From Candidatus Dormiibacterota bacterium (GTDB lineage: Bacteria > Acidobacteriota > Terriglobia > Acidiferrales > UBA7541), in assembly GCA_035534415.1 (NCBI GenBank), contig DATLSB010000164.1, forward strand, positions 445 through 64,444: DNA of 64,000 bases, in the 5' to 3' direction. Every line of letters starts with the position of its first letter. Position 1 is the stretch's first letter. This document shows, in pieces, positions 4,781 through 23,266 of the stretch. The notes beneath the pieces were generated by a model. It was not told the DNA's origin, made no database searches, and saw only the letters and a list, made by a program, of their open reading frames with translations. A program made the translations under genes and the position numbers.

Positions 4781-5656
4781 ATGCGCGTCCCACGGCCCTT
4801 CCTATTGTTATTCGCTGCCTTCCTTGTAGCCGTTCCCGCTTCCGCCCAAACCACTTCAACCGCGCCCGCGACGAGCGATCCGCAAGCCGTAGCTCTGGTG
4901 CAGAAGTCGCTTGCCGCCCTTACAGGTGGTCTCGCCGTTACGGATGTGACGCTCACCGGCTCGTCGCGTCGCGTCGCTGGCTCCGACGATGAAACCGGCA
5001 CGGCTACCCTCGAAGCCACATCCGCCGGAGACAGCCGCGTCGAACTCAGCTTCGGCTCGGGCAACCGCGTCGAGATTCGTAACCACGCCGGTGCGCCCTT
5101 GCCGAACGCACTTCCTCCAGCCGTGCCGCTTCCGTCGGCAGCGATGCAGCCACAACCAGTCGGAGCGTGGTCCGGGCCAGATGGTGTGCTGCACGGCATG
5201 GCTCAGCAAAACACGTTGACGGAAGCCGCTTGGTTCTTCCCGGCGCAAGCCGTTGGGGACATTGCGAAAGCCCCGCTTTGGGTGCTGACCTACGTCGGCC
5301 CCGAGACCCACGACGGCGTATCGGTGGTTCACATTCAAGCCGCACAGGAAATTCCGGCCATCGCCAATGCCCCTCAACAGGTGGTCGATTCGATTCTGCG
5401 CCTCACCCGGACAGACCTCTATTTCGACCCCAACTCTCTGCTCCCGGTCGCGCTCGCTTTCAATACGCACCCTCACAACAATGCCTTCGTCGATATTCCC
5501 GTTGAGGTTCGGTTCTCCAACTATCAATCGGTGAACGGCGTGGCCGTTCCCACAGACGTTCAGAAGTATGTGAATCGCGGCCTGGTTCTCGATCTTCAAT
5601 TCTCCAAAGTAACCCTCAACTCCGGCCTGACCGCTTCGGCCTTCGCGCTCCAGTGA
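4781..5656 (+). CDS. secreted hypothetical protein, first gene of the RHS operon
   Basis: 291 aa. Signal peptide MRVPRPFLLLFAAFLVAVPASAQ. Strong RBS. Its stop is 18 nt before the RHS ATG. Confidence 0.75.
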   Translation: MRVPRPFLLLFAAFLVAVPASAQTTSTAPATSDPQAVALVQKSLAALTGGLAVTDVTLTGSSRRVAGSDDETGTATLEATSAGDSRVELSFGSGNRVEIRNHAGAPLPNALPPAVPLPSAAMQPQPVGAWSGPDGVLHGMAQQNTLTEAAWFFPAQAVGDIAKAPLWVLTYVGPETHDGVSVVHIQAAQEIPAIANAPQQVVDSILRLTRTDLYFDPNSLLPVALAFNTHPHNNAFVDIPVEVRFSNYQSVNGVAVPTDVQKYVNRGLVLDLQFSKVTLNSGLTASAFALQ

Positions 5657-5673
5657 TGCGAGGAGACTCGGCG

Positions 5674-10242: not shown

Positions 10243-10283
10243 AAAATGGACTGAAAACGGGCTACGTGCGGAGCCTCATCTCA

Positions 10284-11753
10284 ATGTGTGGGTGGCGGAA
10301 ATCCAGTGCAATAGTGTGCATGTTTTGGCTGTGCGGGGCCTCTGCATGTTTTCCCACTGCTGAGGCGCAGGATGTAAGCCCGGGGCCCATTCGTGTGGAA
10401 TCGAAGGAGGTCATTGTTCCCGTCTTGGTGCTGGACAAAAAACGCCTTCAAGATATTCGCGGCATGGACGTGCTTGCTTATATCCGGGAAGCCGACGCGC
10501 CCAATTCTCGCTTGCTAGAGGGCCTCGCTGTACGCGGTTTGGCAGTGGAGGATTTCCGAGTTTTCGATAACGGGGCGAAACAGAAGATACAGCGACTAAC
10601 GCCCGATTCCTTCGGGTTCGGCGACGAACCCGGCGCAGGGATAGGAAAATGGGAGGTCCCGGAGACGCACGCTGGCGATAGCGGCTCGGCCGTCATCCAT
10701 ATGCCGCTCTGGCCTAGCTATCTAATTGCGTACCCCAAGCCGCCCGCAACGAGCGGGAATTGCCACAAGGTTGTCGTGAAGGTTGATCGGCCCGACTCGC
10801 TGGTTTATAGCAGTGGCCGGTACTGTAACGGAAAGAACTCGCTGGCTGACCCGTTGAGGGGAACCAAAGTCGGTAACCAGATGGAAGACTTACTTAAGTC
10901 CGGGAAGAGCGGGGCCATCGGCTTGTGGCTCGATGTTTTCCCTTTCCTTGGCGGTGATGGCCGACCGGCGACCGACATCACCGTTGGATTCTATCTAAAG
11001 CCTAGGCCTGAAGACTGTGGCAAGTGGCGCCAGATTGGCGTCTTGGGGCTGATCTACGCGAAAAACAGAACCCTCGCGACGCGCTTCAGCGACATCATGT
11101 CTACCGTCGCTTTTCATGGTGTGTCGTTGCCCATGCCAGGGCCTTTGCCTCCGGGACCGTGCATAGCGCACGATGATCCTCCCAACGGGTATGAAACTGC
11201 AGTTCACCTCCCGCCGGGCAAGTACACGTTGAGCGTGATCCTCCGCGACGGGAAGAGGTTCGGCGAGGCTGAAACGCTATTCAACGTGGAAGGCAGCGAC
11301 CAGGAACATTTGGAGATTAGCGGGATCGTACTCGCGAAACAGTTCCGGCAGCTACGCGCTGAACAGAGAGAAGATGCCTCATCGGGGCGAGGATACGTGC
11401 CATTGGTGAGCAAGGGATTTGAAGTTGTTCCCACGGCGAATACGCGCTTTAGGAAGGGCGGGCCGTTTTACTTTTACTTGCAGATATACGATCCGATGCT
11501 GCTGGAGGCCCTGGTTCCGAGAGTCGAAGCACATCTGCGAATTGTGAACGTAAAAACTGGCCAAGTGGTCAAGAGCCTTGCACCAGTCAACGCGGCGTCA
11601 TACGCTAAACTTGGCGATCCAGTGATCCCCATTGGTGGAGGAATCGACATCAACGGCTTACCGAAAGGTTCCTACATGCTTGAGGCGCAAGCTACCGACT
11701 CGGCTGGCGACACTACTTCTTGGCGAACAGCCAAGTTCACGATTGAGCATTAA
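10284..11753 (+). CDS. secreted protein resembling the N-terminus of acidobacterial VWFA-related (TIGR03436-like) proteins
   Basis: Signal peptide MCGWRKSSAIVCMFWLCGASACFPTAEAQ. IRVESKEVIVPVLVLDKK...LAVEDFRVFDNGAKQKIQ matches, from memory, the conserved start of that family. No MIDAS DxSxS motif seen. Confidence 0.7.
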   Translation: MCGWRKSSAIVCMFWLCGASACFPTAEAQDVSPGPIRVESKEVIVPVLVLDKKRLQDIRGMDVLAYIREADAPNSRLLEGLAVRGLAVEDFRVFDNGAKQKIQRLTPDSFGFGDEPGAGIGKWEVPETHAGDSGSAVIHMPLWPSYLIAYPKPPATSGNCHKVVVKVDRPDSLVYSSGRYCNGKNSLADPLRGTKVGNQMEDLLKSGKSGAIGLWLDVFPFLGGDGRPATDITVGFYLKPRPEDCGKWRQIGVLGLIYAKNRTLATRFSDIMSTVAFHGVSLPMPGPLPPGPCIAHDDPPNGYETAVHLPPGKYTLSVILRDGKRFGEAETLFNVEGSDQEHLEISGIVLAKQFRQLRAEQREDASSGRGYVPLVSKGFEVVPTANTRFRKGGPFYFYLQIYDPMLLEALVPRVEAHLRIVNVKTGQVVKSLAPVNAASYAKLGDPVIPIGGGIDINGLPKGSYMLEAQATDSAGDTTSWRTAKFTIEH

Positions 11754-11784: not shown

Positions 11785-12374
11785 CTGTCGTTCGCCAAAA
11801 TGCTATTCGCGACGAGATCGACGCTGTGCCTCGCCAAATGCTGTCCGCGCCGAAGTCGATGCCGTATTGGTTCTGTCGGAGCGAGGCTGGGGGATCGCGC
11901 ACGCCGGGGGCTTGTCGGTCTCGACGGAGACGTTTCTTGCGGGCGGAAAGCGAGGCACACTTCGCGCATGGAGATCCGCAAAGTAGATCAAATTCTGCCC
12001 GAACTAGGCGGCTCTGTCGTAGCGGTGATGCAGCCCGCCGAGTCGCGGATGAGAGAGGACGCAGCCGGAACCCGCACATCGAGTTCTGCCCGCCCAGTGG
12101 CCGGTTAGCTGTGAAATGTGGCATCGGTCGCCCGTTGCTGGCAGTTAACGCAGAGCGCCCAAGAGCGCCGGAGGACGGTGCCTGCGGCACCGGGAGTAGG
12201 GAGGACACGCCGCCCCACTTTTCGGGTTGCAACGAAAACTGCGGTTTAGCTGACAAACTTCTGCGCTCGGTAACGCGTCGTCGCCGCTGCACTTAGGTTG
12301 ACAGAATTCGCTCTGAATTGCCTTTTTGAACTCCGGAGCGATTGATTCGACGGCACTTAGCGATTTGATTCTTG

Positions 12375-12419
12375 CTCATAACCCGGAGGTCGTTGGTTCA
12401 AATCCAACCCCCGCAACCA
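12375..12419 (+). tRNA. 3' half of an initiator tRNA-fMet only (anticodon loop to CCA); a fragment, not a functional tRNA; att-like remnant
   Basis: CTCATAACCCGGAGGTCGTTGGTTCAAATCCAACCCCCGCAACCA. It has a CAT anticodon loop, a CCC anticodon-stem run, the T arm GTTGG-TTCAAAT-CCAAC and the acceptor end CCCCGCA-A-CCA. It matches about 41/45 nt of the E. coli tRNA-fMet 3' half as I recall it. The upstream 30 nt cannot form the 5' acceptor, D arm or anticodon-stem strands. Confidence 0.8.
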
Positions 12420-12640
12420 AACTTTTCCTGCGACAAGCACTTCGGCTTACCCTGCAACCATCGGAATTTGCGATACTAAGCGGCGAGTCGGCCAATCGTC
12501 GTGCGTAGAAGCTCGGTTCATCCGATTGCCCCTCGCCAACCCGAGTGCAATGAAACGGTCATTGGATCACCGTTTTCGTCTCCGACCGCGTACACCCCAG
12601 GATAGGTGTTTTGGGCACAGGTCGCACAGACCACTTCATC

Positions 12641-12662
12641 TATATTCGCAGTTTCGAATATA
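12641..12662. promoter_or_regulatory. perfect 8-6-8 palindrome TATATTCG-CAGTTT-CGAATATA; candidate ArsR operator overlapping -10-like hexamers
   Basis: Ends 8 nt before the ArsR ATG (12671). No Shine-Dalgarno sequence lies between them. Confidence 0.5.
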
Positions 12663-12670
12663 CTGTGTTA

Positions 12671-13027
12671 ATGAGCGACGCACTACGCCAGTTCAAAAGT
12701 GATATTTTTCAGGGGCTCGCAAATCCTACTCGGATTGCGATCGTCGAGCTTTTGCGTGAGGGCGAGCTGCCGGCGGGAAAGCTGATTGAGCGGCTCGGCA
12801 TCGAGCAGGCGAATGCCTCGCAGCATCTGGCAGTTCTGCGGGCAAAGCAGATTGTGGTCAGCCGGAAAGCTGGGAATCAAGTCTATTACTCGATTCGAGA
12901 TCGAGCGCTGATCGACGTTCTCGATATCTTGCGACGCTATTTTTACTCCCAGCTGAGCAGCACTGTGAGCATGCTGCAGGAAGTAGCGAGCGAAAAGCCG
13001 AAGACCCGCCTGAAGACGCCCCGATGA
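12671..13027 (+). CDS. ArsR/SmtB-family transcriptional regulator (cysteine-free)
   Basis: FQGLANPTRIAIVELLREGELPAGKLIERLGIEQANASQHLAVLRAKQIVVSRKAGNQVYYSI is a winged HTH. ATGA overlap with the next gene. Confidence 0.9.
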   Translation: MSDALRQFKSDIFQGLANPTRIAIVELLREGELPAGKLIERLGIEQANASQHLAVLRAKQIVVSRKAGNQVYYSIRDRALIDVLDILRRYFYSQLSSTVSMLQEVASEKPKTRLKTPR

Positions 13028-15846
13028 GCGACGACAGCGGCTCCACACGATCGCGGGTGGATAGACTTCGCGCTGCGGTGAAAAACTCTGCTCACCTCCT
13101 GCCGGCTCAGGGCCCTATCGGCGTCTTCGTTCATCACAACACGCTGCATGCCTTTGAACACCTGCCATTCGAGGAAGCCGTTGTACGAGCCGCGCAACTC
13201 TTTGGTGCCGAACCGTACCTGAGCGAGGCGGCCTACCGGGCCGAATTGGCCCGCGGACGCATCCAGTTCGTGGACGTGGATGCTGTTCTCGATCGTGAGG
13301 CCGACTCGCTGATCTTCGCTCGACTGAACCGGAGCTCGCTTCGCAGGGCCATGATTACGCCGGGAGTCCGGGAATTCGATGCGGCAACGATTGTTTGGCG
13401 CACGGAACAGGGCGATTTGGCCAGGGACTTTCGGCGGGCAGCGTTGCGGGCGCTCTTCGAGGTATGCTTTGCCCGCACCGTAGCTCACGAAGAGGAACCG
13501 GCCCCACCTCGTCCCGTGGATGAAGTCATTCATCCGTGGCTAATCCGGCTTTGCTCGGTGTATTTGGATCAAGGCACGGCGTATTGGCCCATGCCGAATC
13601 GCGAAGGAGGGTTTTACGCAAGCGCTCGGAGACTCTTCTCCGGGCGCGGCGGAATTTTCCCCCAGTACTTGGTCGGGCTCGACGAGGAATTTCGAAGACA
13701 GAAGTGGCTTTCTTTTTCAGTGGCAGACGCGGTGCTGGATTATCTCGACAGCCAGCGTTTCCAAGAAACGGAGTGGCCGGCGATTGTGGAAGCGGAACTC
13801 CTGGCACTGCCCGGTTGGGCGGGCTTGATGCACACGCTGGAGAAAGACCCGACTCTGGCACCGCACAAAACTCTCCCGTGTTCACTCATGGACTTCCTGG
13901 CCGTGCGGCTGACGATGTCGCGGGTGGCGTCGCGCGGCGGCGCTACGGACGCGGTTCCGGAAGAAAGCCCTCTGAAGACACAGGAAAAACGGCGACTGAG
14001 CCGGACCGCGCGGGTCTATGACGCAGCCCGCGTGATCAGGCTTTCTGCTCAAGAGATAAGACGCCTGTCCGATCTCGAGTGGGCGGCGTTTGCGGCCGAA
14101 GTGAAAGCGTTCAACGGGCTGGAGCGGCGGAGAATTTTGCACCTCGCTTACGAGCGCGCGCACGAGCGCGAGATCCTTCGCGGGCTCGCGAGCCATAGGA
14201 AATACGGCAGGCTATTCGAGCTTCAAGGAAGACCTTCTGCGCAGGTGTTTTTCTGCATCGACGAGCGCGAAGAGTCGATGCGGCGCGCCCTCGAAGAGGT
14301 GGACCCGCTCCTGGAAACGTTCAGTGCCGCTGGCTACTTCGGAGTTGCTGTGGAATATAAGGGAATCGACGATCCACGCAGCGCGGCGTTCTGCCCCGTC
14401 GTGGTAAAGCCCGAACACGCCGTTTTCGAACAGCCGAAACCAGAAGACAGCAGCTTGCTTGAAAGCCACCGCTCGCGGCGAAAACTTTTGGGACTGCTCA
14501 TGCGAAATTCGTTTGTTTCGTCAAGGACGCTGGTGAGGGGATGGCTTTCGACTTCCATGCTGGGGCTGCTTTCCGCGGTTCCGCTGATCGGTCACTTGCT
14601 GGCGCCCCGAAGGTATGCACTTTTGCGCGACTGGCTGAACGGCATGTTTCTTCCGGAGCTGCGGACGGAACTGACGTTGATGCGCAACACGAAACAATCG
14701 CAAAGCGCGATGGAAGGCCTGGTGACGGGATTCGCTCCGGCCGAAAAGACCGAACGGATCTCGAGCGTGCTGCGTCCGGCGGGTCTGGTGACTGGATTCG
14801 CCCGCTTGGTAGTGGTTTTGGGCCATGGATCGACCAGCCTCAACAATCCTCACGAATCAGCACATGATTGCGGAGCTTGCGGCGGACGCCGCGGCGGACC
14901 CAACGCACGACTTTTCGCCGCGATGGCCAACCGGCCTGAGGTACGCGAGCGCTTGCGCGGAGAAGGCATCGACATTCCCGCGGATACGTGGTTCATCGGC
15001 GGCTATCACGATACCTGCAGCGACGACGTGGAACTCTTCGACGTGGATGGCGTTCCCGATACGCACCAGGTGGATGTCGATTCGATTTGCAAGTCCCTCG
15101 ATGCAGCGAGAGGGCAGAATGCACGCGAGCGCGTACGGCGATTCGAATCGTGCCCTCCAAACGCAGATGCCGAGCAGGCGCTTCGCCACGTCGAAGAGCG
15201 GAGCGAACATCTGGCGCAGCCGCGACCCGAGTACGGACATTGCACGAATGCGGTTTGCGTCGTCGGGCGCCGCGGCTTGACGCGAGGGCTATTTCTCGAC
15301 CGGCGGGCCTTCCTCGTTTCGTACGACGCCAGCCAAGACCCCGATGATTGCAGCCTAGCGGTGCTCATGGCGAGCGTGGTGCCCGTGTGCGCTGGAATCA
15401 GCCTTGAATACTACTTTTCGTTCGTGGACAACGACCGATATGGCTGTGGGACGAAGCTTCCGCACAACGTAACGAGCTTGATGGGAGTAATGGATGGCCA
15501 CGCGAGCGACCTGCGCACAGGACTCCCATGGCAGATGGTCGAAATCCACGAGCCGGTGCGGATTCTTTTTGTGATCGAGACGACGCCAGAGAGATTGCAG
15601 AAGGTCATCGACGCCAGCGCCTCGTTTAAGCAGCTCGTGAGCAATCGCTGGATTCGGCTGGCGACGATCGATCCCCAGTCGGGACGCGTTCATGCTCGAA
15701 GAGATGGCGGATTCGAGGAGTTCAACGAGGCTTTAGAACGCCTTCCCGTCGCGCTTACGTCGAACGAGTGGTATGCGGGCAAACTCCAACATCTTCCGAT
15801 GGCCTGGATTCAAACACCCCCAGTGGCGACGGGAGATGTGCTGTGA
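13024..15846 (+). CDS. dabA: DUF2309/DabA-like protein (carbonic-anhydrase-like subunit of a DAB inorganic-carbon pump)
   Basis: 940 aa. FVHHNTLHAFEHLPFEEAV, FFCIDEREES (Cys411, Asp413) and VVLGHGSTSLNNPHESAHDCGACGG (His601, Cys616). The C-x-D ... H-x14-C spacing equals the Zn-ligand pattern reported for H. neapolitanus DabA2. Confidence 0.9.
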   Translation: MSDDSGSTRSRVDRLRAAVKNSAHLLPAQGPIGVFVHHNTLHAFEHLPFEEAVVRAAQLFGAEPYLSEAAYRAELARGRIQFVDVDAVLDREADSLIFARLNRSSLRRAMITPGVREFDAATIVWRTEQGDLARDFRRAALRALFEVCFARTVAHEEEPAPPRPVDEVIHPWLIRLCSVYLDQGTAYWPMPNREGGFYASARRLFSGRGGIFPQYLVGLDEEFRRQKWLSFSVADAVLDYLDSQRFQETEWPAIVEAELLALPGWAGLMHTLEKDPTLAPHKTLPCSLMDFLAVRLTMSRVASRGGATDAVPEESPLKTQEKRRLSRTARVYDAARVIRLSAQEIRRLSDLEWAAFAAEVKAFNGLERRRILHLAYERAHEREILRGLASHRKYGRLFELQGRPSAQVFFCIDEREESMRRALEEVDPLLETFSAAGYFGVAVEYKGIDDPRSAAFCPVVVKPEHAVFEQPKPEDSSLLESHRSRRKLLGLLMRNSFVSSRTLVRGWLSTSMLGLLSAVPLIGHLLAPRRYALLRDWLNGMFLPELRTELTLMRNTKQSQSAMEGLVTGFAPAEKTERISSVLRPAGLVTGFARLVVVLGHGSTSLNNPHESAHDCGACGGRRGGPNARLFAAMANRPEVRERLRGEGIDIPADTWFIGGYHDTCSDDVELFDVDGVPDTHQVDVDSICKSLDAARGQNARERVRRFESCPPNADAEQALRHVEERSEHLAQPRPEYGHCTNAVCVVGRRGLTRGLFLDRRAFLVSYDASQDPDDCSLAVLMASVVPVCAGISLEYYFSFVDNDRYGCGTKLPHNVTSLMGVMDGHASDLRTGLPWQMVEIHEPVRILFVIETTPERLQKVIDASASFKQLVSNRWIRLATIDPQSGRVHARRDGGFEEFNEALERLPVALTSNEWYAGKLQHLPMAWIQTPPVATGDVL

Positions 15847-17192
15847 GTTTTCCGCGAGACATTTTGGTTTTCGTGGTGCTGGCGCCGGGTGCCATGTTCG
15901 CGATACTGGCATCGTTGTGGATGGTTGGCTGGACGCCCAGCGAGCGCGTTCTGACGTGGCTTACGGGCGCGACATTTCTCGGCTGCACACTCGGCGTCGC
16001 GGCGCTTGCTTGGACCATCTTGGCGCCGCGTGGTCCTTCAGCCGTCGTGGTCACGTTCGGCAATTGGTTTAGCGTCGGAGACTACCATTTCCCACTAGTG
16101 TTCATCGCGGACCGCCTTTCGCTGCCGTTCCTGGCGCTGGCAGCCGTGTTGTCCGGGTTGATCGGCCAGTTCTCCGCGACTTATCTTCATCGAGATTCGG
16201 GATTCCTGCGATTTTTCCTTTTTCTGCACCTTTTCGCGTTCGGATCATTGCTGGCATTTGCCTCCGGTTCATTCGATCTGCTGGCGGCAGGATGGGAAAT
16301 CGTGGGGATCACGTCGGTCTTGTTGATAGGTTTCTTTCAATTGAGGCCAGCACCTGTCGAAAACGGCCTTCGCGTTTTCGGCATATATCGCGCTTGTGAC
16401 ATTGGCCTGTTCTTAGGCGTATTCGCGATGCATCACTGGGCCGGGACAGCATCGTTCGATCACGGCTTTCCAATTCTCACCGGAAAACAGGCGCTAATCG
16501 TCAGTTTACTACTGCTGCTGGCCGCCTCTGGAAAAGCTGCGCAGGTTCCTTTTTCAGGATGGCTGCCACGCGCCATGGAAGGGCCGACTCCCTCGAGCGC
16601 CATCTTCTACGGGGCGATCTCGATTCATGCGGGCGCATTCCTGCTGCTTCGGGCGCAGCCGCTGCTGGCACAATCGGCGTTTGCTTCCACGCTGGTGATC
16701 TTGATCGGCGCGGCCACGGCCATCCACGGCACAATCGTCGGGCGCGCCAGCGCCGACGCCAAGACGTCGCTCGCGTATGCCACATTGACGCAAGTCGGCG
16801 TGGTGTTTATCGAGATTGGGTTGGGATGGAAATGGCTGGCGGTGGCACACATACTCGGCAATGCCACAGTGCGCACTATGCAGTATCTGCGTGCGCCCTC
16901 GATGCTTCACGACTACCACCAAATGCACTCCGCGATTGGAAGCGAGGTTGCACCGACGGGCAAGCAAATCGAGGAACTGCTGCCGGAGGGCGTCCAGCTA
17001 TGGCTCTATCGTTGGGCCTTCGATCGCGGCCATCTCGACACGATTCTGGACCGCTGGGTGATTGCTCCACTTCTGCAGGCTTCTGCGTATCTGGCAAAGG
17101 GTGATCGGATCGGAGGGCGTTCGGCGAACATGCGGCGGTTCGATGTAACGCCGATTACGTTGCCCGGCCCGGTCGGCCCGAGGGGCGAATAA
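15843..17192 (+). CDS. dabB: NuoL/MrpA-like proton-conducting membrane subunit (DabB-like, PF00361-type)
   Basis: GTGA overlap with the dabA stop. GWEIVGITSVLLIGFF and SGKAAQVPFSGWLPRAMEGPTPSSAIFYGAISIHAG match NuoL TM motifs. Confidence 0.85.
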   Translation: MSFPRDILVFVVLAPGAMFAILASLWMVGWTPSERVLTWLTGATFLGCTLGVAALAWTILAPRGPSAVVVTFGNWFSVGDYHFPLVFIADRLSLPFLALAAVLSGLIGQFSATYLHRDSGFLRFFLFLHLFAFGSLLAFASGSFDLLAAGWEIVGITSVLLIGFFQLRPAPVENGLRVFGIYRACDIGLFLGVFAMHHWAGTASFDHGFPILTGKQALIVSLLLLLAASGKAAQVPFSGWLPRAMEGPTPSSAIFYGAISIHAGAFLLLRAQPLLAQSAFASTLVILIGAATAIHGTIVGRASADAKTSLAYATLTQVGVVFIEIGLGWKWLAVAHILGNATVRTMQYLRAPSMLHDYHQMHSAIGSEVAPTGKQIEELLPEGVQLWLYRWAFDRGHLDTILDRWVIAPLLQASAYLAKGDRIGGRSANMRRFDVTPITLPGPVGPRGE

Positions 17193-18646
17193 TGTCCGCG
17201 CCCGGATGGATGATCCAAGCGCCGTTGTTAACGGATGTCTCCGTTGGAGTTCCGTGGTTGGCAGCGGGCCTTTTAACGGTATTCCGGCGACACGCGCGCG
17301 GCGTTGGTTGCGTGGCGGCAGTCCTGTCGGTAATCGCGAGTGCCATGCTCCTTTGGGAGGCAACCAAAGGAGCTTCACTGTATGAAGCGTTGATGCTCCT
17401 TTTCTCATGCCTGGCTCTCGGGGCGATGCTGGTGCTTCCGCGCCGTGACTGCACGTGGGAAACGGTCAACGGAATCCTTTTTCTGCTCGGGTGCACGCTG
17501 CTAGCGTACTCGGCTGAAAATCTGATCGTTTTGCTGGCCGCGTGGGTTTTGTCTGAAGTGCCATTCGTTTCTGCTGGATGGTTTAGAGCTGGCACTTGGC
17601 GTCCGTTGCTTGGGCTTCTATTGTCGAGTCTGGCCTTTGCGACTGCCATCGGGATAATCGTGGCCAGCACGGGAGTAGTCTCGATTCATTTGCTGAAGGA
17701 CCATAGCCCCGGGGGGATTGCAGCATTCGGGCTTCTCGTGATTGCGGTAATTTTTCGCAAAGGAATTTGCCCCGCTCACGCATGGGTGGCGGACGCAGCG
17801 GAGACTGGTCCAGCGGTTCCAACCGCACTTCTGTTGAACGGACATTTCGGAGCTTTGCTGGTCGTCAAGCTAATCGTGCCGCTGTTCCCGCGCACGGACG
17901 AACTCTTCCCAGTACTTTCGTATCTAGCGATCGTTACTGCCCTTTATGTCGCTATCCGTGCGCTCGGCGAGAATTCGCCCAGGCGCTTGCTGGCGTTTCT
18001 GGCGGTCAGCCAATCCGCTTGTATATTGAGCGGACTGGAAAGTCGCACGCCGGAAGGAATTGCCGGCGCGATCGTACATTGGTTCGTGGTTTCGGTGTCC
18101 ACGGTGGGCCTTTTCGGGATTTTGCGGCTGCTGGAGGTTCGTTTTGGTGAGAACCTCACGGCGAGCAAGCACCTCGGTTTGTCGGAACATGCGCCTCGCC
18201 TCGCAGTGTCGTTCGCGATCCTCGGCCTGGCATTGGTCGGCTTGCCCGGCACCCTGGGCTTCTGTTCTCAAGACTTGCTGATACATGGAGCGCTTACGTC
18301 GCATCCGCTCACCGGATTGCTGCTCCCCATCGCGACGGCAATGAATGCCATAAGCATATTTCGATTGTTCAGCCGTTTATTCCTGGGCAAGCGCCGAACC
18401 GATTTCACAGTGATGGCGGACGCAATGCCGCGCGAGCGATGGGCTCTCGCGGCCGGCGTTTTGTTCGTCGTCCTGGGAGGGTTGTTCCCGAACATGATCG
18501 TGATTCAGCATCCCGCGGAGGCCGACACTGTCAAAGAAGCCGTCCTCCGTCGCCGTGGCCGAGAAGATACGAAGACAGGAAATGCACGTTTCCTACATAA
18601 AACCGTCTCATGGCGTGGCGAAAGTAATTGGCAACGAGGTCGTTAA
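17192..18646 (+). CDS. second, divergent NuoN/NuoM/MrpD-like antiporter-type membrane subunit
   Basis: TAATG overlap with the previous gene. Polytopic. FRKGICPAHAWVADAAETGPAVPTALLL resembles the K..P.H.WLPDA motif. The last ~40 aa overlap a convergent gene and look non-native. Confidence 0.8.
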   Translation: MSAPGWMIQAPLLTDVSVGVPWLAAGLLTVFRRHARGVGCVAAVLSVIASAMLLWEATKGASLYEALMLLFSCLALGAMLVLPRRDCTWETVNGILFLLGCTLLAYSAENLIVLLAAWVLSEVPFVSAGWFRAGTWRPLLGLLLSSLAFATAIGIIVASTGVVSIHLLKDHSPGGIAAFGLLVIAVIFRKGICPAHAWVADAAETGPAVPTALLLNGHFGALLVVKLIVPLFPRTDELFPVLSYLAIVTALYVAIRALGENSPRRLLAFLAVSQSACILSGLESRTPEGIAGAIVHWFVVSVSTVGLFGILRLLEVRFGENLTASKHLGLSEHAPRLAVSFAILGLALVGLPGTLGFCSQDLLIHGALTSHPLTGLLLPIATAMNAISIFRLFSRLFLGKRRTDFTVMADAMPRERWALAAGVLFVVLGGLFPNMIVIQHPAEADTVKEAVLRRRGREDTKTGNARFLHKTVSWRGESNWQRGR

Positions 18647-18821
18647 GATCTTCGGTAATTTCGTCCTGCGTTAGAACTCTGACGAATCGTACGACGAATT
18701 CCGGACTGACGAGCCACAGGGCGATGCCGCCGGCGATCTCCACGACACCATCCAGCCCTTTGAAAACCACTCCTAGTCGAAACAGAAGTTTTCGAAGACG
18801 AGCTTTGTCAATTTGGGTCAT
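18531..18821 (-). CDS. small membrane protein, DUF2127-like (possibly 3'-truncated)
   Basis: FKGLDGVVEIAGGIALWLV...LTQDEITEDLNDLVANYF...SSYLLGHG resembles DUF2127 from memory. It starts 30 nt after the outer-membrane factor stop. Confidence 0.5.
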   Translation of the reverse strand: MTQIDKARLRKLLFRLGVVFKGLDGVVEIAGGIALWLVSPEFVVRFVRVLTQDEITEDLNDLVANYFRHAMRRFYVGNVHFLSSYLLGHGDGGRLL

Positions 18822-18851
18822 CGGGTTTAAGGATCAAAACTCCGTGCGTGC

Positions 18852-20207
18852 CTACGGCGTGTTGGCTCCTGTACCAAATGGCAGGCCCAAGAGAGTGTTC
18901 AAAGATGATTGCGCGGTCGCGAGAGAGCCACGCAACTTAATTTCTTCGGCTTCGGTTGTCAGCAGGCTTGATTCGACGGTTACATACAAAGCCGCAGACA
19001 CGTTCGCCTGCTCGAAGCCTTGCTTGGCAGCCGCGGCCGTCTGGCGCAGGACTGCGAGTCGCGCATCGAGATCGCCAAGTTGTTTCTGCATAATTTTCGT
19101 CGCTTCCCAGACTTGGTTGGCACTACCTACGGCCTGGTCAAGCCGCGCCTGATACGCTTCGCGAAGGACGGTCCGCGTTGCCCGTTGAATCGCGATGTTG
19201 CCGCGGTTGCGATTGAAAAGCGGCAGCGATAACGTGACGTTCGGCCCGAAACTGTTCACTCCTTCCACCGAATCGCGGCTGTACGTGACGCCGGCGCTTA
19301 GGTCTGGAAATTGCGCGAGAATGGCCTCGCGTAAACTTTGCTGCTGAGCTTCATATCCTGCCTGAAGTGCGAGCAGGTCCGCGCGGCGACGCGGGAGCGC
19401 GGTCACTGCTGCTTGGAACTGTGCTTTCGGGAGCGCTTGCATGGCAGTGGGGCCGGTCAACTGAAGCTGCACGCCTGGCTGCAGTCCAAGCAACTGATCG
19501 AGCTGTTGGCAGGTGGCGCTCGCGTTCAGTTGAAACTGGCGGAGTTTACTTTCAGCGTCCGCGAGTAACGTGAGGTCCGCTGTCGCAATGCTAATCGTGA
19601 TGTCCTCTCTGTGCAGAGCCGCCTGATCTTGGCGATAACGTTCGGCGAAAAAGTCGCGCGCTGAGGCCAGCACTCGCTGAAGTTGAGCGTTCGATTGCGA
19701 TTGGATAAATAGCTCCCGGGCTCGCTCCGCGACCTGCCATTCCTGCCAGAGGATATTGAGCTGCACCTGCCGTTCGTTCGCTCTGGCTGCGGCTTTTGCA
19801 GCGCCGCGAGAAATCAGGGCTTGAATGTCCTCGCTGAGTCCGATACCACCACCATAGTTCAAGGCGGATTTTGCGAAATCCGCACTCAGCACCGGATCGG
19901 GCAGCAATCCCGCTTGAAGAAGCTGGGCGCTTGCCACTCCTTCCTGCAGCCGCGCCGTTTTGAGGTCGGGATTGTCAAAAACGGCTAGCGTGACCACGGC
20001 CGTTTCGTCCAGGCCATTCTTTGGAAACGAATGCGGCTTGAGTCCCGGCAGCCAAAATTCGCTGGCAGGAACCGTGAGCGGTGGTGTGGCAGCCAAGTCA
20101 GGAGCCGGCGGCAACGGAGCCGGATGATAAACAGCGCAGCCCGCGAGGCAGGCCAATGCCAAGCAAAAGGCGAATTTCAGCAGCCGCACGCGATGATGCG
20201 ACCTCAT
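18852..20207 (-). CDS. outer-membrane efflux lipoprotein (TolC/CzcC-like OMF) of the RND system
   Basis: Start at the internal Met MRSHHRVRLLKFAFCLALACLAGC (lipobox), which has an ATGA overlap with the RND stop. The coiled-coil-rich OEP-type sequence follows. The 242-codon upstream extension lies inside the RND gene. Confidence 0.85.
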   Translation of the reverse strand: MRSHHRVRLLKFAFCLALACLAGCAVYHPAPLPPAPDLAATPPLTVPASEFWLPGLKPHSFPKNGLDETAVVTLAVFDNPDLKTARLQEGVASAQLLQAGLLPDPVLSADFAKSALNYGGGIGLSEDIQALISRGAAKAAARANERQVQLNILWQEWQVAERARELFIQSQSNAQLQRVLASARDFFAERYRQDQAALHREDITISIATADLTLLADAESKLRQFQLNASATCQQLDQLLGLQPGVQLQLTGPTAMQALPKAQFQAAVTALPRRRADLLALQAGYEAQQQSLREAILAQFPDLSAGVTYSRDSVEGVNSFGPNVTLSLPLFNRNRGNIAIQRATRTVLREAYQARLDQAVGSANQVWEATKIMQKQLGDLDARLAVLRQTAAAAKQGFEQANVSAALYVTVESSLLTTEAEEIKLRGSLATAQSSLNTLLGLPFGTGANTP

Positions 20208-23200
20208 GCCAAATTCGCCTTTGCTATTTGTTTGCGGCGCTGATCGAGGTATAGGGCCGGAATCAGATTGGCGCTGAGCAACGCGCTCCAAAAGATGCCT
20301 CCCATGACGACGACCGCTAGTCCTTGCTCCGGCGCGGCGCCCTGTCCCCAACCCAGTGCGGTCGGCAACATACCCAGAACCGCTGTTAACGTAGTGAGGG
20401 TGATCGGACGAAAGCGCACGTGGACTGCCTCGGTCACTGCCTCCTCGGGTGCCATTCCCGAAGCCTCGTTGCGCCGTGCGCGGTACAGCAGCACGATTCC
20501 GTGGTTGAGTCCGATGCCGACCAAGGTCAGCAAGCCGACCAAACCCACAGCGTTCAATCCGACTCCACTGGCGATCAGCGCCATCAAGCCTCCGCTGAAA
20601 GCGAGAGGAATCTGCAACAGCAGTATCCCGGGCACTAGAAGTCCCTCGAACTGAAGAATCATAATTCCGGCCATGAGCACGAACGCCGCAGCAGCAGCGA
20701 TCGCCAGTCCCAGAGCGGCATCCTCCAGCTGCGGATAAAGACCACCGAATGCGATCCGGTATCCCGGCGGCAGACGCAAACCGCTTAAGGCGGAACGGGC
20801 AGACGCGATAGCGCTGCCCAGCGGTCCAGTGGGCGTCGCGAGGATCTGCAGCGCTCGTGCACCATCGATATGACGAATTTGGATCGGCGTGGTAATCATC
20901 TTCAGACTCGCCAATTGCCCGAGCGGGGTCCAACCGGCGGTGCGAATCGGCAGTCTGCTCAGATCATCGAGAGACTTTTGGGGAGCGTCGGCCAATCGCA
21001 CGTAGATGTCGAGTGGAACATTTCCCTCCGGCACCTGCGCCACGATGTCGCCGTTCAACAAAGGCGAAATCTGATCGTTCAATTCAAACGGGGTTAGCCC
21101 GGATGCGGCAAGCGCTCCTGGTTTCGGCTCCAACTGAAGTTCCGTAACTGGATACGCATCGTTATTAAAAACGCCGCTGAGTGCAGGCACGGTTCTAAGT
21201 CGCGCGGTTATTTCGTCTGCTAGCGTTCGCAATTCAGTGACGCTGCTTCCGTACAGATTCAGGACAAACGGTTGAGGCAAGCCGGAAAGGCTCTCACCAA
21301 CGCGTTCGATTGTTGGTGTATCGAACGCAAGTTGCACCCCGGGGAACTGGCTCTTGGCGTGTAGACGATCTGCGATCTCCGTGAGGCTGTTTACGCTCAC
21401 GTTCGGTTTCAGCGTCACTTGAATTTCGCCGGCGTACGCGGGTTCCGTGTACATGGTGCTGGTTGATGAACCGATGCGCGCGAAGGTGTGCCCCACCGCC
21501 GGATCGGAGCGCAGGCGTCGCGTGATGTCCGTCACCGTGCGTTCCGTGTCGAGCATCGAACTTCCGGGCGCAAGCGCGAAACTTTCCAGTAGCACGCCTT
21601 CGTTCGGTAGCGGAAGGAAATTAACTGGGACGAGGACGAGTCCGCCGATACTGGCCACGAGTATTACGACGCATGAAATCAAACTCGCTCGCGGATGCCG
21701 TGCGACGAAATGGAACAATCGCATATTTCCGCTGCTCAGCTTGTCAAGCGCTCTGGTCGCGCTGGTCGGGGTTTCTCTCGCGCGCGTCCGCAAAAGGCCC
21801 AGACTCAACGGCACCAAGCTCAGCGAAATCACGAGCGACGCGAGCAGAGCGAGTGCCATAGCCAGCGCGAATGGGATGAAAAACAGCCCTGCCAGCCCGC
21901 CCACAAACAGCAGCGGAATAAACACTGCCCCAGTTGTGAGGGTTCCCGTAACGTCGGGGCTTGCGATTTCCCTAAGCCCATTCGCGATTCCGACTCGATG
22001 CTCGTCGCCCTGTTCCCAGCGATGGTAGATGCTTTCGAGCACAATGATTCCGTCGTCGGCGAGCAGACCAACAGCCACAGTTAGCGCGCCGAGGGTCATC
22101 AAGTTGAGACTCTGGCCCGCAGAGTAGAGTCCAGCGATGGCCATGAGCAGCGACAACGGAATGCTAATCGCAAGAATCCATACCCCGCCGCTCGCTCCCA
22201 GAACCCAGAGCATCACCGCAATCGCCAGCGTGCCGCCGATCAGCAGGTTGCGCGTCAAATCCGCGCCGACAACGTGCACCAAGTGCCCTTGATCGTAGAT
22301 GCGCACCCAATGCACGCCGTGCGGTAATTGGCCCGACGTCTCGGTCAAAGTAGACTGGACAGCCTGAGTCACGGGCACAGTCGAAGCGCCGGGCTGCTTG
22401 AAAACGATCAGCGCAATACTGTGCTTGCTGTCGAAATAGATAGTGTTCAGGGTAGGAACGGGGCCGCGCACAATGCGCGCAAGATTGCCGAGAGGAATTC
22501 GACCGGTGATGCTTGAAACGGGAATGTCCGCCAATTCCGAGGTGGTCACTGGCAGGTTGCGGACTTCGATGAACGTGTCCTGGTGGCTTTGCGAAAGATA
22601 TCCGCCCGGCTGCAACAGCACGTCCTGTTGCAGCGCTTGCGTGATCGATGTGATCGGCACGCGATAGCGCACCATTGCGCTTAGGTCTGGTTGCACCCAC
22701 AAACCTTCGTCACCAGCGCCATACACTTCCACTCGCTGCACGCCCGGCAGGGCGCGCAGCGCGGGCACAATATTGGCGAGAACGTCCCGCTGGACCTCCA
22801 CGGGCGGGACGGTCACGGGTATTTGGGCAGTGTAGTCGGCCACTTCGTTGATGGCGTTCCCCATGATCTCGGCGAGCGGATGCACGGATGTAGGAATGCG
22901 CCCACGCGCCCGATCGATGGCGCCGTTCACGGATTGAAGCTCAGCCTGCGGATCGGTCCCCTGCTGAAACCGCACGTCCGTCTCTACTGTGCCATTGCCC
23001 ATTGTGCTGCGCAGGTTGACGATGTTCGGCAGCGCGAGAATCTCGCCTTCCACCGGCCAAGTAATCTGCGTCTCCAGTTCCTCGGCGGTTGCCCCAGGCT
23101 CATGAGTAATGACGCTGATCTCAGGAAAGTTAAACTGTGGCAACACCTCGACCGGAATTTTCCAAAGTGCGTACGCCCCGTATCCAACTAGCGCGCCGTA

Positions 23201-23263
23201 GACCAGCACCCAAAATACTGGTTGTAGCAGTAGACGACTGAGCGTGTTTTGTTGGTTCATCAT
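20204..23263 (-). CDS. RND efflux transporter permease (AcrB/CzcA superfamily)
   Basis: 1019 aa with 12-TM/two-large-loop RND architecture. N-terminus ...IPVEVLPQFNFPEISVITHEPGATAEELE is CzcA/CusA-like. Confidence 0.95.
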   Translation of the reverse strand: MMNQQNTLSRLLLQPVFWVLVYGALVGYGAYALWKIPVEVLPQFNFPEISVITHEPGATAEELETQITWPVEGEILALPNIVNLRSTMGNGTVETDVRFQQGTDPQAELQSVNGAIDRARGRIPTSVHPLAEIMGNAINEVADYTAQIPVTVPPVEVQRDVLANIVPALRALPGVQRVEVYGAGDEGLWVQPDLSAMVRYRVPITSITQALQQDVLLQPGGYLSQSHQDTFIEVRNLPVTTSELADIPVSSITGRIPLGNLARIVRGPVPTLNTIYFDSKHSIALIVFKQPGASTVPVTQAVQSTLTETSGQLPHGVHWVRIYDQGHLVHVVGADLTRNLLIGGTLAIAVMLWVLGASGGVWILAISIPLSLLMAIAGLYSAGQSLNLMTLGALTVAVGLLADDGIIVLESIYHRWEQGDEHRVGIANGLREIASPDVTGTLTTGAVFIPLLFVGGLAGLFFIPFALAMALALLASLVISLSLVPLSLGLLRTRARETPTSATRALDKLSSGNMRLFHFVARHPRASLISCVVILVASIGGLVLVPVNFLPLPNEGVLLESFALAPGSSMLDTERTVTDITRRLRSDPAVGHTFARIGSSTSTMYTEPAYAGEIQVTLKPNVSVNSLTEIADRLHAKSQFPGVQLAFDTPTIERVGESLSGLPQPFVLNLYGSSVTELRTLADEITARLRTVPALSGVFNNDAYPVTELQLEPKPGALAASGLTPFELNDQISPLLNGDIVAQVPEGNVPLDIYVRLADAPQKSLDDLSRLPIRTAGWTPLGQLASLKMITTPIQIRHIDGARALQILATPTGPLGSAIASARSALSGLRLPPGYRIAFGGLYPQLEDAALGLAIAAAAAFVLMAGIMILQFEGLLVPGILLLQIPLAFSGGLMALIASGVGLNAVGLVGLLTLVGIGLNHGIVLLYRARRNEASGMAPEEAVTEAVHVRFRPITLTTLTAVLGMLPTALGWGQGAAPEQGLAVVVMGGIFWSALLSANLIPALYLDQRRKQIAKANLA

Positions 23264-23266
23264 GAA

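What the first reader, a model, noticed from the sequence alone, without database searches (positions are those of the whole stretch)
12641..18646. ArsR-coupled DAB-like inorganic-carbon pump with two antiporter-type subunits
DabA (DUF2309, 940 aa) carries the Cys-x-Asp ... His-x14-Cys pattern (C411, D413, H601, C616). This reproduces the beta-carbonic-anhydrase-like Zn site reported for H. neapolitanus DabA2 (C351/D353/H524/C539, from memory of Desmarais et al. 2019). It is translationally coupled on both sides: ATGA with an upstream ArsR regulator and GTGA with a NuoL-like DabB. A second, more divergent NuoN/M-like subunit follows with a TAATG overlap. Described DAB/Mps systems are usually presented as a two-gene DabA/DabB unit. 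A four-gene regulator-A-B-B' module in what looks like a heterotrophic soil bacterium would be a distinct architecture. The extra subunit could add a second ion channel, and the ArsR-type repressor suggests ligand-controlled expression.
Basis: partly seen in the sequence, partly recalled or inferred. Interest (0 to 1): 0.7.

Follow-up and report, generated by a model that had tools for sequence, protein, structure and literature searches.

The report
Three-subunit DAB CO2 pump variant
This is an intact operon for a DAB-type CO2-hydrating inorganic-carbon pump whose third subunit is a full-size complex-I NuoM-like membrane protein rather than the small DabC of known three-subunit DABs. This undescribed but conserved variant is common in soil Acidobacteriota and points to where DabC came from.

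Summary
Four overlapping + strand genes encode an ArsR-family regulator (12671-13027), DabA (13024-15846, PF10070, E=4.7e-233), a NuoL-like DabB (15843-17192) and a second PF00361 protein, B' (17192-18646). The four Zn ligands C411/D413/H601/C616 align to those of solved DabA2 and are invariant in relatives.

The interpretation needs correcting. Three-subunit DABs (DAB1 = DabA/B/C) are already known and solved. B' is the full-length version of DabC: the DabC profile matches B' residues 192-432 (hhalign 97.4%, E=1.2e-11). The B' model (pLDDT 91) matches NuoM/NdhD/MrpD over its full length (TM-score 0.82).

This lineage differs from DAB1 and DAB2 in several ways:
- Gene order is A-B-B'.
- DabB is short (about 450 aa, 11 TM, no TM12-15).
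- DabB keeps the complex-I TM5 Glu that the sampled DAB1- and DAB2-type DabB proteins lack.
- B' keeps the charged or polar channel residues that DabC lacks.

A-B-B' is syntenic in every informative locus of 80 genome loci (Acidobacteriota) and in Sandaracinus (Myxococcota). A natural DabB-B' fusion exists.

ArsR accompanies only one clade. It has no Cys or His sensing site, and a conserved operator-like inverted repeat lies upstream. The other clade carries SulP instead.

Verdict: a new variant of a known kind. Function and subunit contacts are inferred.

The parts
12641..12662 (.). Perfect 8-6-8 inverted repeat TATATTCG-N6-CGAATATA. It is the putative ArsR operator. It overlaps a TATACT -10-like hexamer and ends 8 nt before the arsR ATG.
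   Evidence: the repeat finder I3. The same repeat, exact or with one or two mismatches, lies a similar short distance (about 8-17 nt) upstream of arsR in all 28 orthologous loci listed, while the flanks diverge. Binding was not tested.
12671..13027 (+). ArsR/SmtB-family winged-helix regulator, 118 aa, Cys-free. Its stop overlaps the dabA start (ATGA).
   Evidence: Pfam HTH_5 7.4e-10 and HTH_20 2.7e-10. NCBIfam NF033788, 86 bits against a cut-off of 55. Cys is absent from the window protein and from 26 of the 28 other proteins listed, and the only conserved His is in SQHLAVLR.
13024..15846 (+). DabA, 940 aa. Cytoplasmic beta-carbonic-anhydrase-like subunit with Zn ligands C411, D413, H601, C616. 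A hydrophobic 'finger' lies at about 500-530.
   Evidence: PF10070 E=4.7e-233. Alignment to DabA2 9rd0_A. Ligands invariant in relatives. 38.5% identical over its full length to Sandaracinus DabA, against about 30% to the DabA of two-gene DABs.
15843..17192 (+). Short DabB, 449 aa. NuoL-like with TM1-11 only, then a conserved non-membrane tail of about 95 aa. It keeps TM5 Glu (E152), TM7 K231, H262, H336 and R344.
   Evidence: PF00662+PF00361. Best NCBIfam and PDB hits are NuoL. Hydropathy. Alignment with DabB1 and DAB2-type DabB shows missing TM12-15 and a lineage-specific GWE motif. Residues are invariant over 83 loci.
17192..18646 (+). B' ('long DabC'), 484 aa. Full-length 14-TM NuoM/NdhD/MrpD-class antiporter-like subunit. 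R189-K190 (TM7), H218 (TM8), Q360-D361 (TM12), H365 and H371 are present. The canonical TM5 Glu is absent.
   Evidence: PF00361 5.5e-30. AF2 pLDDT 91, pTM 0.91. Foldseek top hits NdhD/NuoM/ND4/MrpD with TM-score 0.82. hhalign to the DabC profile 97.4%, E=1.2e-11. Synteny. Residue statistics.

Best explanation
The locus encodes a three-subunit DAB/DAC-type energy-coupled ('vectorial') carbonic anhydrase that traps CO2 as cytoplasmic bicarbonate.

Proposed mechanism:
- DabA hydrates CO2 at a buried beta-CA-like Zn site (C411/D413/H601/C616).
- Turnover is coupled to downhill cation (most likely H+) flow through a membrane module made of two complex-I-type antiporter-like subunits.
- One is a truncated NuoL-like DabB (TM1-11).
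- The other is B', a full-length NuoM-like subunit and the untruncated homologue of DabC of DAB1.
- B' most likely sits where NuoM sits next to NuoL, and where DabC sits next to DabB in the DAB1 structure. Its TM12 (Gln/Glu360-Asp361) would then face DabB's retained TM5 Glu / TM7 Lys pair.
- In that position it would supply or stabilise the part of the ion path that DAB2 builds from DabB TM12-13 plus the DabA finger Glu444.

Regulation: the four genes are translationally coupled. They are probably transcribed from a promoter overlapped by an 8-6-8 inverted repeat, at which the Cys-free ArsR-family protein autorepresses. Its effector is unknown.

Shown: gene content, Zn ligands, fold class of B', homology of B' to DabC, strict synteny, a natural fusion, and residue conservation.

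Inferred: complex formation, the position of B', ion flow through or along B', CO2-uptake activity, and ArsR binding.
For: Identity of the parts: Pfam, NCBIfam and PDB matches.

Zn ligands: aligned to solved DabA2 and invariant.

B' is an integral partner:
- A-B-B' occurs in the same order, directly adjacent, in every locus with enough flank among 80 genome loci, down to 40% B' identity. The one exception is L063, where DabB and DabA lie on the opposite strand about 3 kb away.
- The same arrangement occurs in Sandaracinus amylolyticus and in a further metagenome contig.
- All three proteins co-vary.
- Start and stop codons overlap.
- A natural fusion exists of short DabB with the C-terminal half of B' (P0241).

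B' = long DabC:
- hhalign of the DabC profile against the B' profile gives 97.4%, E=1.2e-11, DabC 13-245 on B' 192-432.
- The control against a DabB profile gives 0.2%.
- DabC is an essential, structurally resolved subunit that aligns with the NuoM helices next to NuoL (10.64898/2026.05.01.722082).

B' fold: AF2 pLDDT 91; NuoM/NdhD/MrpD TM-score 0.82.

A NuoM-NuoL-like interface is plausible:
- The TM5 Glu (GWE) is present in 78 of the 79 DabB of this lineage that cover the motif. It is F/G/A/I/S in DabB1 and DAB2-type DabB and Ile151 in DabB2.
- B' TM12 (E/Q)D, TM7 RK and TM8 H are conserved.
- DabB lacks TM12-15.
- The DabA finger shows no acidic residue at the position of Glu444.

Inorganic-carbon context: SulP lies directly upstream or divergent in the sister clade, and SulP plus a beta-CA lie next to the fused form.

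Operator: a conserved inverted repeat just upstream of arsR (8 nt in the window, about 8-17 nt in the orthologous loci).
Against: - There are no functional data for any member of this lineage.
- The DabB-B' contact could not be modelled.
- B' lacks the canonical TM5 Glu. In the window's clade the TM12 Glu is Gln (35/35) and DabB His340 is Asn (31/35). B' may therefore be structural, like DabC, rather than ion-conducting.
- The DabC HMM scores B' only modestly above complex I subunits: 34-51 bits against up to 28 bits. A specific sister relationship between DabC and B' is not proven.
- The finger alignment to DabA2 around Glu444 is low-confidence.
- ArsR has no recognisable sensing site, and no sigma-70 consensus promoter was found.
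Confidence: 0.72

Rival explanations
1. B' is a purely structural or allosteric scaffold. Like DabC, it holds DabB and DabA in place and carries no ions. All ion flow runs through DabB and DabA.
For: - DabC is judged structural in DAB1.
- B' has lost the TM5 Glu (position 119 is Ile/Val).
- In the window's clade TM12 Glu is Gln in 35/35.
- The truncated fused form P0241 shows that the N-terminal half of B' is dispensable in some lineages.
Against: - B' keeps R189-K190, H218, D361, H365 and H371 almost invariantly. The sister clade keeps Glu360 in 47/48. DabC has hydrophobic residues at these positions.
- DabB keeps the inter-subunit TM5 Glu only when B' is present.
- All 14 TM helices are conserved and confidently modelled.
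Confidence: 0.3
2. The module is not an inorganic-carbon pump. It is a cation (Na+ or H+) transporter or membrane-potential generator of the Mrp / MpsA type, with DabA acting as a regulatory cap.
For: - MpsAB was first described as membrane-potential generating and Na+ transporting.
- Two antiporter-like subunits side by side resemble MrpA/MrpD (Foldseek hits 6z16_D and 7qru_D).
- Clade-specific E to Q and H to N changes might alter ion handling.
Against: - The Zn-binding beta-CA ligands are invariant.
- The partners are SulP and a beta-CA, not mrp genes.
- No MrpB/C/E/F/G genes are nearby.
- Tested DAB/Mps homologues rescue CA-deficient E. coli.
Confidence: 0.08
3. The ArsR gene is an incidental neighbour, or a regulator of something else such as the nearby efflux pump, and not the regulator of the DAB genes.
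For: - ArsR is absent from the Bryobacterales and Sandaracinus clade.
- It has no sensing residues.
- An RND efflux operon lies downstream in the window.
Against: - ArsR is directly upstream of dabA in 27 of 28 clade-1 loci with upstream DNA, usually with overlapping stop and start codons, while the other flanking genes differ.
- The conserved inverted repeat lies just upstream of its own start, so it heads the operon.
Confidence: 0.1

Closest known systems
DAB1 (DabA1/DabB1/DabC) of Halothiobacillus neapolitanus and Thermocrinis albus; example read here: Nitrobacter hamburgensis plasmid NC_007959.1 (L084)
   Same: - Three subunits.
- A DabA with the beta-CA-like Zn site.
- A NuoL-like PF00662+PF00361 DabB.
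- A third membrane subunit homologous to the C-terminal half of an M/N-class antiporter subunit (hhalign 97.4%).
   Different: - The third subunit is 484 aa with 14 TM, hits PF00361 and has conserved polar or charged channel residues. DabC is about 253 aa, has no Pfam hit and is hydrophobic at those positions.
- Gene order is A-B-B' instead of B-C-A.
- DabB is about 450 aa without TM12-15, against 565 aa.
- DabB keeps the TM5 Glu, which is Phe in DabB1.
- There is no P-II gene, and no carboxysome or RuBisCO context was seen.
DAB2 / MpsAB / two-subunit DAC (H. neapolitanus DabA2B2, PDB 9rd0; S. aureus MpsAB)
   Same: - PF10070 + PF00361 pair.
- Identical Zn-ligand pattern.
- DabB TM4-11 with NuoL-type Lys and His residues.
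   Different: - There is an extra full-size subunit.
- DabB lacks the TM12-15 that cradle the DabA finger in DAB2.
- DabB has Glu where DabB2 has Ile151.
- No acidic residue aligns with DabA2 Glu444, although that alignment is low-confidence.
- Gene order is reversed.
- The regulator is ArsR or the neighbour is SulP, instead of LysR.
Cyanobacterial NDH-1MS/MS' CO2-uptake modules (NdhD3/NdhF3/CupA, NdhD4/NdhF4/CupB)
   Same: A NuoM-class (NdhD) and a NuoL-class (NdhF) antiporter-like subunit are paired with a Zn-dependent vectorial CO2-hydrating protein. NdhD is the top structural match of B' (6nbq_D).
   Different: - The catalytic subunit is DabA, not CupA/B.
- No other NDH-1 subunits and no redox module are present.
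- Coupling is presumably to the ion gradient alone.
- The resemblance is architectural, not membership.
Complex I NuoM-NuoL and Mrp MrpD-MrpA pairs
   Same: - Fold of both membrane subunits.
- TM5 Glu and TM7 Lys in the L-type subunit.
- A TM12 acidic residue in the M-type subunit.
   Different: - There are no partner nuo or mrp genes.
- The L-type subunit is truncated after TM11 and has no long lateral helix.
- The M-type subunit lacks the TM5 Glu.

Membership tests
DAB / DAC / MpsAB inorganic-carbon accumulating complexes | Cytoplasmic PF10070 (DUF2309) DabA subunit | tested here: met
   PF10070 E=4.7e-233, covering 2-747 of 747 profile positions. 9rd0_A E=9e-70.
DAB / DAC / MpsAB inorganic-carbon accumulating complexes | Beta-CA-like Zn ligands Cys-x-Asp ... 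His-x14-Cys | tested here: met
   C411/D413/H601/C616 align to C351/D353/H524/C539 of DabA2. They are invariant in all relatives that cover those columns, 73-76 of 78.
DAB / DAC / MpsAB inorganic-carbon accumulating complexes | Adjacent NuoL-like PF00361 membrane subunit (DabB) | tested here: met
   PF00662+PF00361. Overlapping GTGA junction. DabB2 9rd0_B E=2.1e-23.
DAB / DAC / MpsAB inorganic-carbon accumulating complexes | DabB TM12-15 plus the DabA finger Glu (DabA2 E444) forming the outer half-channel | tested here: not met
   DabB ends after TM11. No acidic residue is found in finger 500-530 in 73 relatives. The finger alignment is low-confidence.
DAB / DAC / MpsAB inorganic-carbon accumulating complexes | Energy-dependent inorganic-carbon accumulation and rescue of CA-free E. 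coli | not testable with these tools
   This needs an experiment. The only support here is context: SulP and a beta-CA as neighbours.
DAB1 (DabABC) | Third subunit homologous to DabC | tested here: met
   hhalign A3 against A1: 97.4%, E=1.2e-11, 227 columns. Control against DabB: 0.2%.
DAB1 (DabABC) | DabC is small (about 250 aa, half a NuoM), has no Pfam domain, and its proton-path residues are hydrophobic | tested here: not met
   B' is 484 aa with 14 TM and hits PF00361 at 5.5e-30. R189-K190, H218, (E/Q)360-D361 and H365 are conserved. Nitrobacter DabC is 253 aa with no Pfam hit.
DAB1 (DabABC) | Operon order dabB-dabC-dabA, often with P-II and carboxysome or RuBisCO genes | tested here: not met
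   The order here is dabA-dabB-B' in 80+ loci. Nitrobacter has B-C-A-PII.
ArsR/SmtB metalloregulators | Winged helix-turn-helix of the ArsR type | tested here: met
   PF01022 and PF12840. NF033788, 86 bits against a cut-off of 55.
ArsR/SmtB metalloregulators | Cys/His metal- or thiol-sensing site (alpha3, alpha3N, alpha5 types) | tested here: not met
   Cys is absent from the window protein and from 26 of the 28 other proteins listed. The single conserved His is in the recognition helix. Which motifs define these sites is taken from general knowledge of the family.
Complex I NuoM / NdhD / MrpD antiporter-like subunits | 14-TM fold with discontinuous TM7 and TM12 | tested here: met
   AF2 pLDDT 91. 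TM-score 0.82 to NdhD, NuoM, ND4 and MrpD.
Complex I NuoM / NdhD / MrpD antiporter-like subunits | Full set of TM5 Glu, TM7 Lys, TM8 Lys/His and TM12 Glu/Lys, and a location within a nuo, ndh or mrp operon | tested here: not met
   The TM5 Glu position is Ile/Val. TM12 is Gln-Asp in the window. The neighbours are dabA and dabB, not nuo or mrp genes. Bit scores to curated NuoM/N models are far below their cut-offs.

The most novel reading that the evidence does not exclude
This lineage is the ancestral-like, 'two-module' form of DAB.

- DabB and a still-functional NuoM-like B' would form a complex-I-style lateral proton relay: B' TM12 Glu/Asp to DabB TM5 Glu / TM7 Lys.
- More than one ion could then be coupled per CO2 hydrated, or a periplasmic entry could be provided through B'. 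That would give a different stoichiometry and driving force than DAB1 and DAB2.
- DabC of DAB1 would be a degenerate remnant of B'.
- The clade-specific, paired Glu360-to-Gln (B') and His340-to-Asn (DabB) switch in the ArsR-coupled clade would mark a change of ion path or coupling ion.
Probability: 0.25. Interest if true: 0.8.

Novelty: new variant of a known kind. Interest (0 to 1): 0.6.

Why it matters
DAB complexes are being solved right now (two 2026 cryo-EM preprints), and open questions remain about how ion flow is coupled to one-way CO2 hydration and what DabC is for.

What this lineage adds:
- It supplies a natural 'missing link': a DAB whose third subunit is still a complete NuoM-class antiporter subunit with conserved channel residues.
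- Its DabB still carries the inter-subunit TM5 Glu of complex I but has lost the helices that hold the DabA finger in DAB2.
- It suggests that DabC derives from a truncated antiporter-like subunit.
- It ties DABs architecturally to the cyanobacterial NdhD/NdhF/Cup CO2-uptake modules.
- It offers a ready set of mutational and stoichiometry tests.

The lineage is also widespread in Acidobacteriota, a dominant soil phylum. It was found in 118 species genomes from a single narrow motif scan and forms 219 clusters at 50% identity. It may therefore matter for anaplerotic or dark CO2 assimilation in acidic soils, where CO2 is the main inorganic-carbon species.

Tried and rejected
- T. albus DabB/DabC from the synthetic-gene table of the DAB1 preprint: the machine-read DNA is too corrupted, and even DabB gave no tblastn hit. 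DabC was taken from a Nitrobacter plasmid instead.
It was repeated with 16 sequences. The single motif used biases the survey towards Acidobacteriota.
- Modelling the DabB-B' contact:
  - MAFFT misaligned trimmed B' halves onto DabB (A5, A6).
  - The natural fusion P0241 with a shallow alignment gave pLDDT 64 and pTM 0.47, with the DabB half below 50. No conclusion was drawn from it.
- MpsC of S. aureus as a candidate equivalent of B': rejected, because it is dispensable and not syntenic outside staphylococci.
- Consensus promoter and terminator scan of 12200-19000: nothing above the shuffled expectation.
- Rfam and ARAGORN on the leader region: nothing found.
- Idea that B' is simply the split-off C-terminus of DabB: rejected. 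B' is a complete 14-TM M/N-class protein, and DabB plus B' total 933 aa, against 551-565 aa for DabB1 and DabB2.
- Idea that B' is a DabB paralogue: rejected. Its best PDB hits are NuoM, NuoN and NdhD, and DabB2 is not among the hits at E<=1e-5.
- Literature searches for this architecture found nothing. Subscription-only papers are not covered.

Full report
OBSERVATION

The window carries four co-directional, overlapping genes on the + strand.

- arsR, 12671-13027, 118 aa. The ATG lies 60 nt inside the longest ORF.
- dabA, 13024-15846, 940 aa. It overlaps arsR as ATGA.
- dabB, 15843-17192, 449 aa from the GTG that forms GTGA with the dabA stop. Gene calls on homologous contigs use the same 4-nt overlap.
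- A second membrane gene, called B' here, 17192-18646, 484 aa. It overlaps dabB as TAATG.

Family matches:
- ArsR-type HTH for arsR.
- PF10070 DabA, E=4.7e-233, for dabA.
- PF00662+PF00361 for dabB.
- PF00361 alone for B'.

By NCBIfam and PDB, the best relatives of DabB are NuoL/ND5, and those of B' are NuoM, then NuoN and NdhD.

Against the solved DabA2 (PDB 9rd0_A, E=9e-70), C411/D413 fall on C351/D353 and H601/C616 on H524/C539. All four are invariant in the relatives that cover those columns, 73-76 of 78.

WHAT IS ALREADY KNOWN

That is outdated.

- H. neapolitanus DAB1 has been described as a three-gene cluster since 2018 (10.1101/476713).
- A 2026 preprint reports a 2.13 A cryo-EM structure of T. 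albus DAB1 as a DabA/DabB/DabC heterotrimer (10.64898/2026.05.01.722082).
- In that work DabC is small (about half a NuoM) and has no Pfam domain. It superposes on the NuoM helices next to NuoL, has hydrophobic residues where NuoM has proton-path residues, and is essential.
- The DAB2 structure (10.64898/2026.03.13.711513) shows DabB2 TM1-11 superposing on NuoL. TM12-15 are splayed to hold a DabA2 'finger' whose Glu444 replaces NuoL K399/D400. The NuoL TM5 Glu is replaced by Ile151.

WHAT B' IS

A real DAB1 operon was recovered from the Nitrobacter hamburgensis plasmid NC_007959.1. It contains DabB1 (565 aa), DabC (253 aa, no Pfam hit), DabA1 (1037 aa) and P-II.

Evidence that B' is a full-length relative of DabC:
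- A profile of 35 DabC sequences aligns to a profile of 71 B'-family sequences with 97.4% probability and E=1.2e-11. DabC 13-245 falls on B' 192-432, that is, TM7b to TM14.
- The same DabC profile does not match a DabB profile (0.2%).
- As a caution, the DabC HMM scores B'-family members at 17-51 bits and PDB complex I subunits at up to 28 bits. DabC clearly belongs to the M/N class, and B' is the closest thing found, but a strict sister relationship is not proven.

Evidence on the fold of B':
- An AlphaFold2 model of B' is confident (pLDDT 91, pTM 0.91).
- It matches NdhD, NuoM, ND4 and MrpD over its whole length (TM-score 0.82).
- B' is therefore a complete 14-TM antiporter-like subunit. It is neither a fragment of DabB nor a DabB paralogue.

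A natural intermediate exists. P0241 (676 aa) is a fusion of a short DabB to the C-terminal half of B', and it still carries the AEDLL TM12 motif. It is encoded next to DabA, a SulP transporter and a beta-carbonic anhydrase.

CO-OCCURRENCE

- B' has hundreds of close relatives. A homology search gave 984 hits at E<=1e-10, and the top 120 are at least 70% identical, all with PF00361. The hits that carry an organism name are mostly Acidobacteriota MAGs.
- There are 219 clusters at 50% identity with E<=1e-30, all scoring far above canonical NuoM, which reaches about 80 bits.
- A scan of one genome per species found 118 relatives. The 80 loci kept are nearly all Terriglobia-type Acidobacteriota MAGs: Acidoferrales, Terriglobales, Bryobacterales and Solibacter, plus some evidently mislabelled bins.
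- In every locus with enough upstream DNA, DabA and DabB lie directly upstream in the order A-B-B', down to 40% B' identity. The one exception is L063, where DabB and DabA are on the other strand about 3 kb away.
- More distant B' relatives show the same three genes in Sandaracinus amylolyticus, a cultured myxobacterium (CP011125), and on another contig.
- Window DabA, DabB and B' are each closest to their Sandaracinus counterparts (38.5%, 41% and 34% identity). They are less similar to the DabA and DabB of DAB1 and of two-gene DABs: about 30% identity for DabA of two-gene DABs, a partial 337-residue match for DabA1, and 23-30% for DabB. The trio therefore evolves as a unit.

HOW THIS LINEAGE DIFFERS FROM DAB1 AND DAB2

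1. Gene order is A-B-B'. DAB2-type operons are B-A and DAB1 is B-C-A.
2. DabB is short, with a median of 448 aa. It has 11 TM helices followed by a conserved non-membrane tail (LLP..WLYR.A.DRGHLD..L.R). It lacks the TM12-15 present in DabB1, DabB2 and MpsA.
3. The complex-I TM5 Glu (GWE) is present in 78 of the 79 DabB of this lineage that cover the motif. It is F, G, A, I or S in DabB1 and four two-gene DabB proteins, and Ile in DabB2. In complex I this Glu, together with the TM7 Lys, faces the neighbouring antiporter subunit.
4. B' keeps R189-K190 (TM7), H218 (TM8), (E/Q)360-D361 (TM12), H365 and H371. It has lost the TM5 Glu.
5. The DabA finger (about 500-530) is conserved but has no acidic residue where DabA2 has Glu444. 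That alignment is low-confidence.

MECHANISM (INFERRED)

These features fit a model with three elements.
- DabA does the Zn-dependent CO2 hydration.
- DabB TM4-11 provides the cytoplasm-side ion path, as in DAB2.
- B', sitting in the NuoM/DabC position, contacts DabB's TM5 Glu / TM7 Lys through its TM12. It would thereby supply or stabilise the part of the path that DAB2 builds from DabB TM12-13 plus the DabA finger.

The contact itself could not be modelled.
- The natural fusion folded poorly with the shallow alignment that was allowed (pLDDT 64).

Whether B' carries ions or is only structural remains open. Two observations weaken an ion-conducting role in this particular window.
- The window's own clade has Gln at B' 360 (35/35) and Asn at DabB 340 (31/35).
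- The sister clade has Glu (47/48) and His (46/48) at those positions.

The architectural parallel to the cyanobacterial NdhD3/NdhF3/CupA CO2-uptake module is striking: an M-class plus an L-class subunit plus a Zn hydratase. It is analogy only, not membership.

REGULATION AND CONTEXT

ArsR:
- ArsR precedes dabA in 27 of 28 loci of the clade closest to the window (B' at least 59% identical).
- It is replaced in the other clade by a SulP (PF00916) gene, co-directional in about two dozen loci and divergent in seven, Sandaracinus included.
- SulP and beta-CA neighbours support a role in inorganic carbon.
- The ArsR protein has the wHTH but no Cys, and only one conserved His, in the recognition helix. 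It lacks the classical metal or thiol sensing sites, so nothing points to a particular ligand.

Putative operator:
- A perfect 8-6-8 inverted repeat (TATATTCG-N6-CGAATATA, 12641-12662) ends 8 nt before the arsR ATG.
- It overlaps a TATACT hexamer.
- It is conserved, exactly or nearly so, in all 28 orthologous loci listed, while the flanks diverge.
- This is a plausible autoregulatory operator on a nearly leaderless transcript. Binding was not tested.

Flanking genes in the window are an RHS-repeat protein upstream and an RND efflux operon on the other strand downstream. They differ between loci and are not part of the unit.

NOVELTY

No paper in the searchable library describes a DAB with a full-length NuoM-class third subunit, or DABs in Acidobacteriota. 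Subscription-only literature is not covered.

The system belongs to a known kind, DAB/DAC vectorial carbonic anhydrases, including three-subunit forms. Its subunit architecture is distinct, conserved and apparently undescribed, so it is rated a new variant of a known kind.

It would matter for three reasons:
- It is a natural intermediate that points to the origin of DabC.
- It ties DABs to complex I and NDH-1MS architecture.
- It offers specific residues and subunit combinations for testing the still unresolved coupling mechanism.

All functional statements here are inferences from homology, synteny and conservation.

Noticed in passing
window 12384-12419: A stretch that reads like the 3' part of a tRNA: T arm GTTGGTTCAAATCCAAC, acceptor strand and CCA. 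No complete tRNA is detected by ARAGORN or Rfam. It may be a remnant of an integration site between the RHS locus and the DAB operon.
   Followed up: partly
window 17192-18646 (B') and 15843-17192 (DabB); loci L004-L083: There are paired clade-specific substitutions. B' TM12 position 360 is Gln in 35/35 ArsR-type loci and Glu in 47/48 SulP-type loci. DabB position 340 is Asn in 31/35 ArsR-type loci and His in 46/48 SulP-type loci. Two protonatable residues are replaced together by amide look-alikes. The meaning is unknown.
   Followed up: partly
window 17192-17425: The public annotation of this protein (HVB87705.1, 406 aa) starts 78 codons downstream of the ATG used here. The 484-aa start overlaps the dabB stop, is the one conserved in homologues, and its N-terminal helices are modelled at pLDDT above 90. 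The deposited start therefore looks too short.
   Followed up: yes
whole window (source record): Identical proteins are deposited under 'Candidatus Dormibacteraeota bacterium' (MAG, contig of about 66-69 kb). All close homologues of the DAB genes come from Acidobacteriota (Acidoferrales/Terriglobales) MAGs. The bin's taxonomic label may be wrong, or the contig may be mis-binned.
   Followed up: partly
window 5653-11753: A 1529-aa RHS-repeat protein is followed by an overlapping 513-aa ORF with no Pfam hit. This is the typical layout of a polymorphic toxin locus. It lies directly upstream of the DAB operon.
   Followed up: no
window 18852-24409, - strand: An RND efflux operon: an outer-membrane factor (PF02321), an AcrB-type pump (1019 aa) and a membrane-fusion protein. 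It converges on the end of B'.
   Followed up: no
L092 3071-10309: A metagenome contig carries DabA split into two ORFs (456 + 507 aa), a fused short-DabB/B'-C-terminal-half protein (676 aa), SulP and a beta-carbonic anhydrase in one row. It is an intermediate form between B' and DabC.
   Followed up: partly
L084 3518-9404 and 10437-14997: The Nitrobacter hamburgensis X14 plasmid carries two tandem copies of the DAB1 operon (dabB-dabC-dabA) with identical DabC proteins.
   Followed up: no
L035-L083 (Bryobacterales-type loci), L085: A SulP-family transporter gene sits immediately upstream of dabA, often overlapping it, in the clade that lacks ArsR. ArsR and SulP are mutually exclusive upstream partners.
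   Followed up: yes
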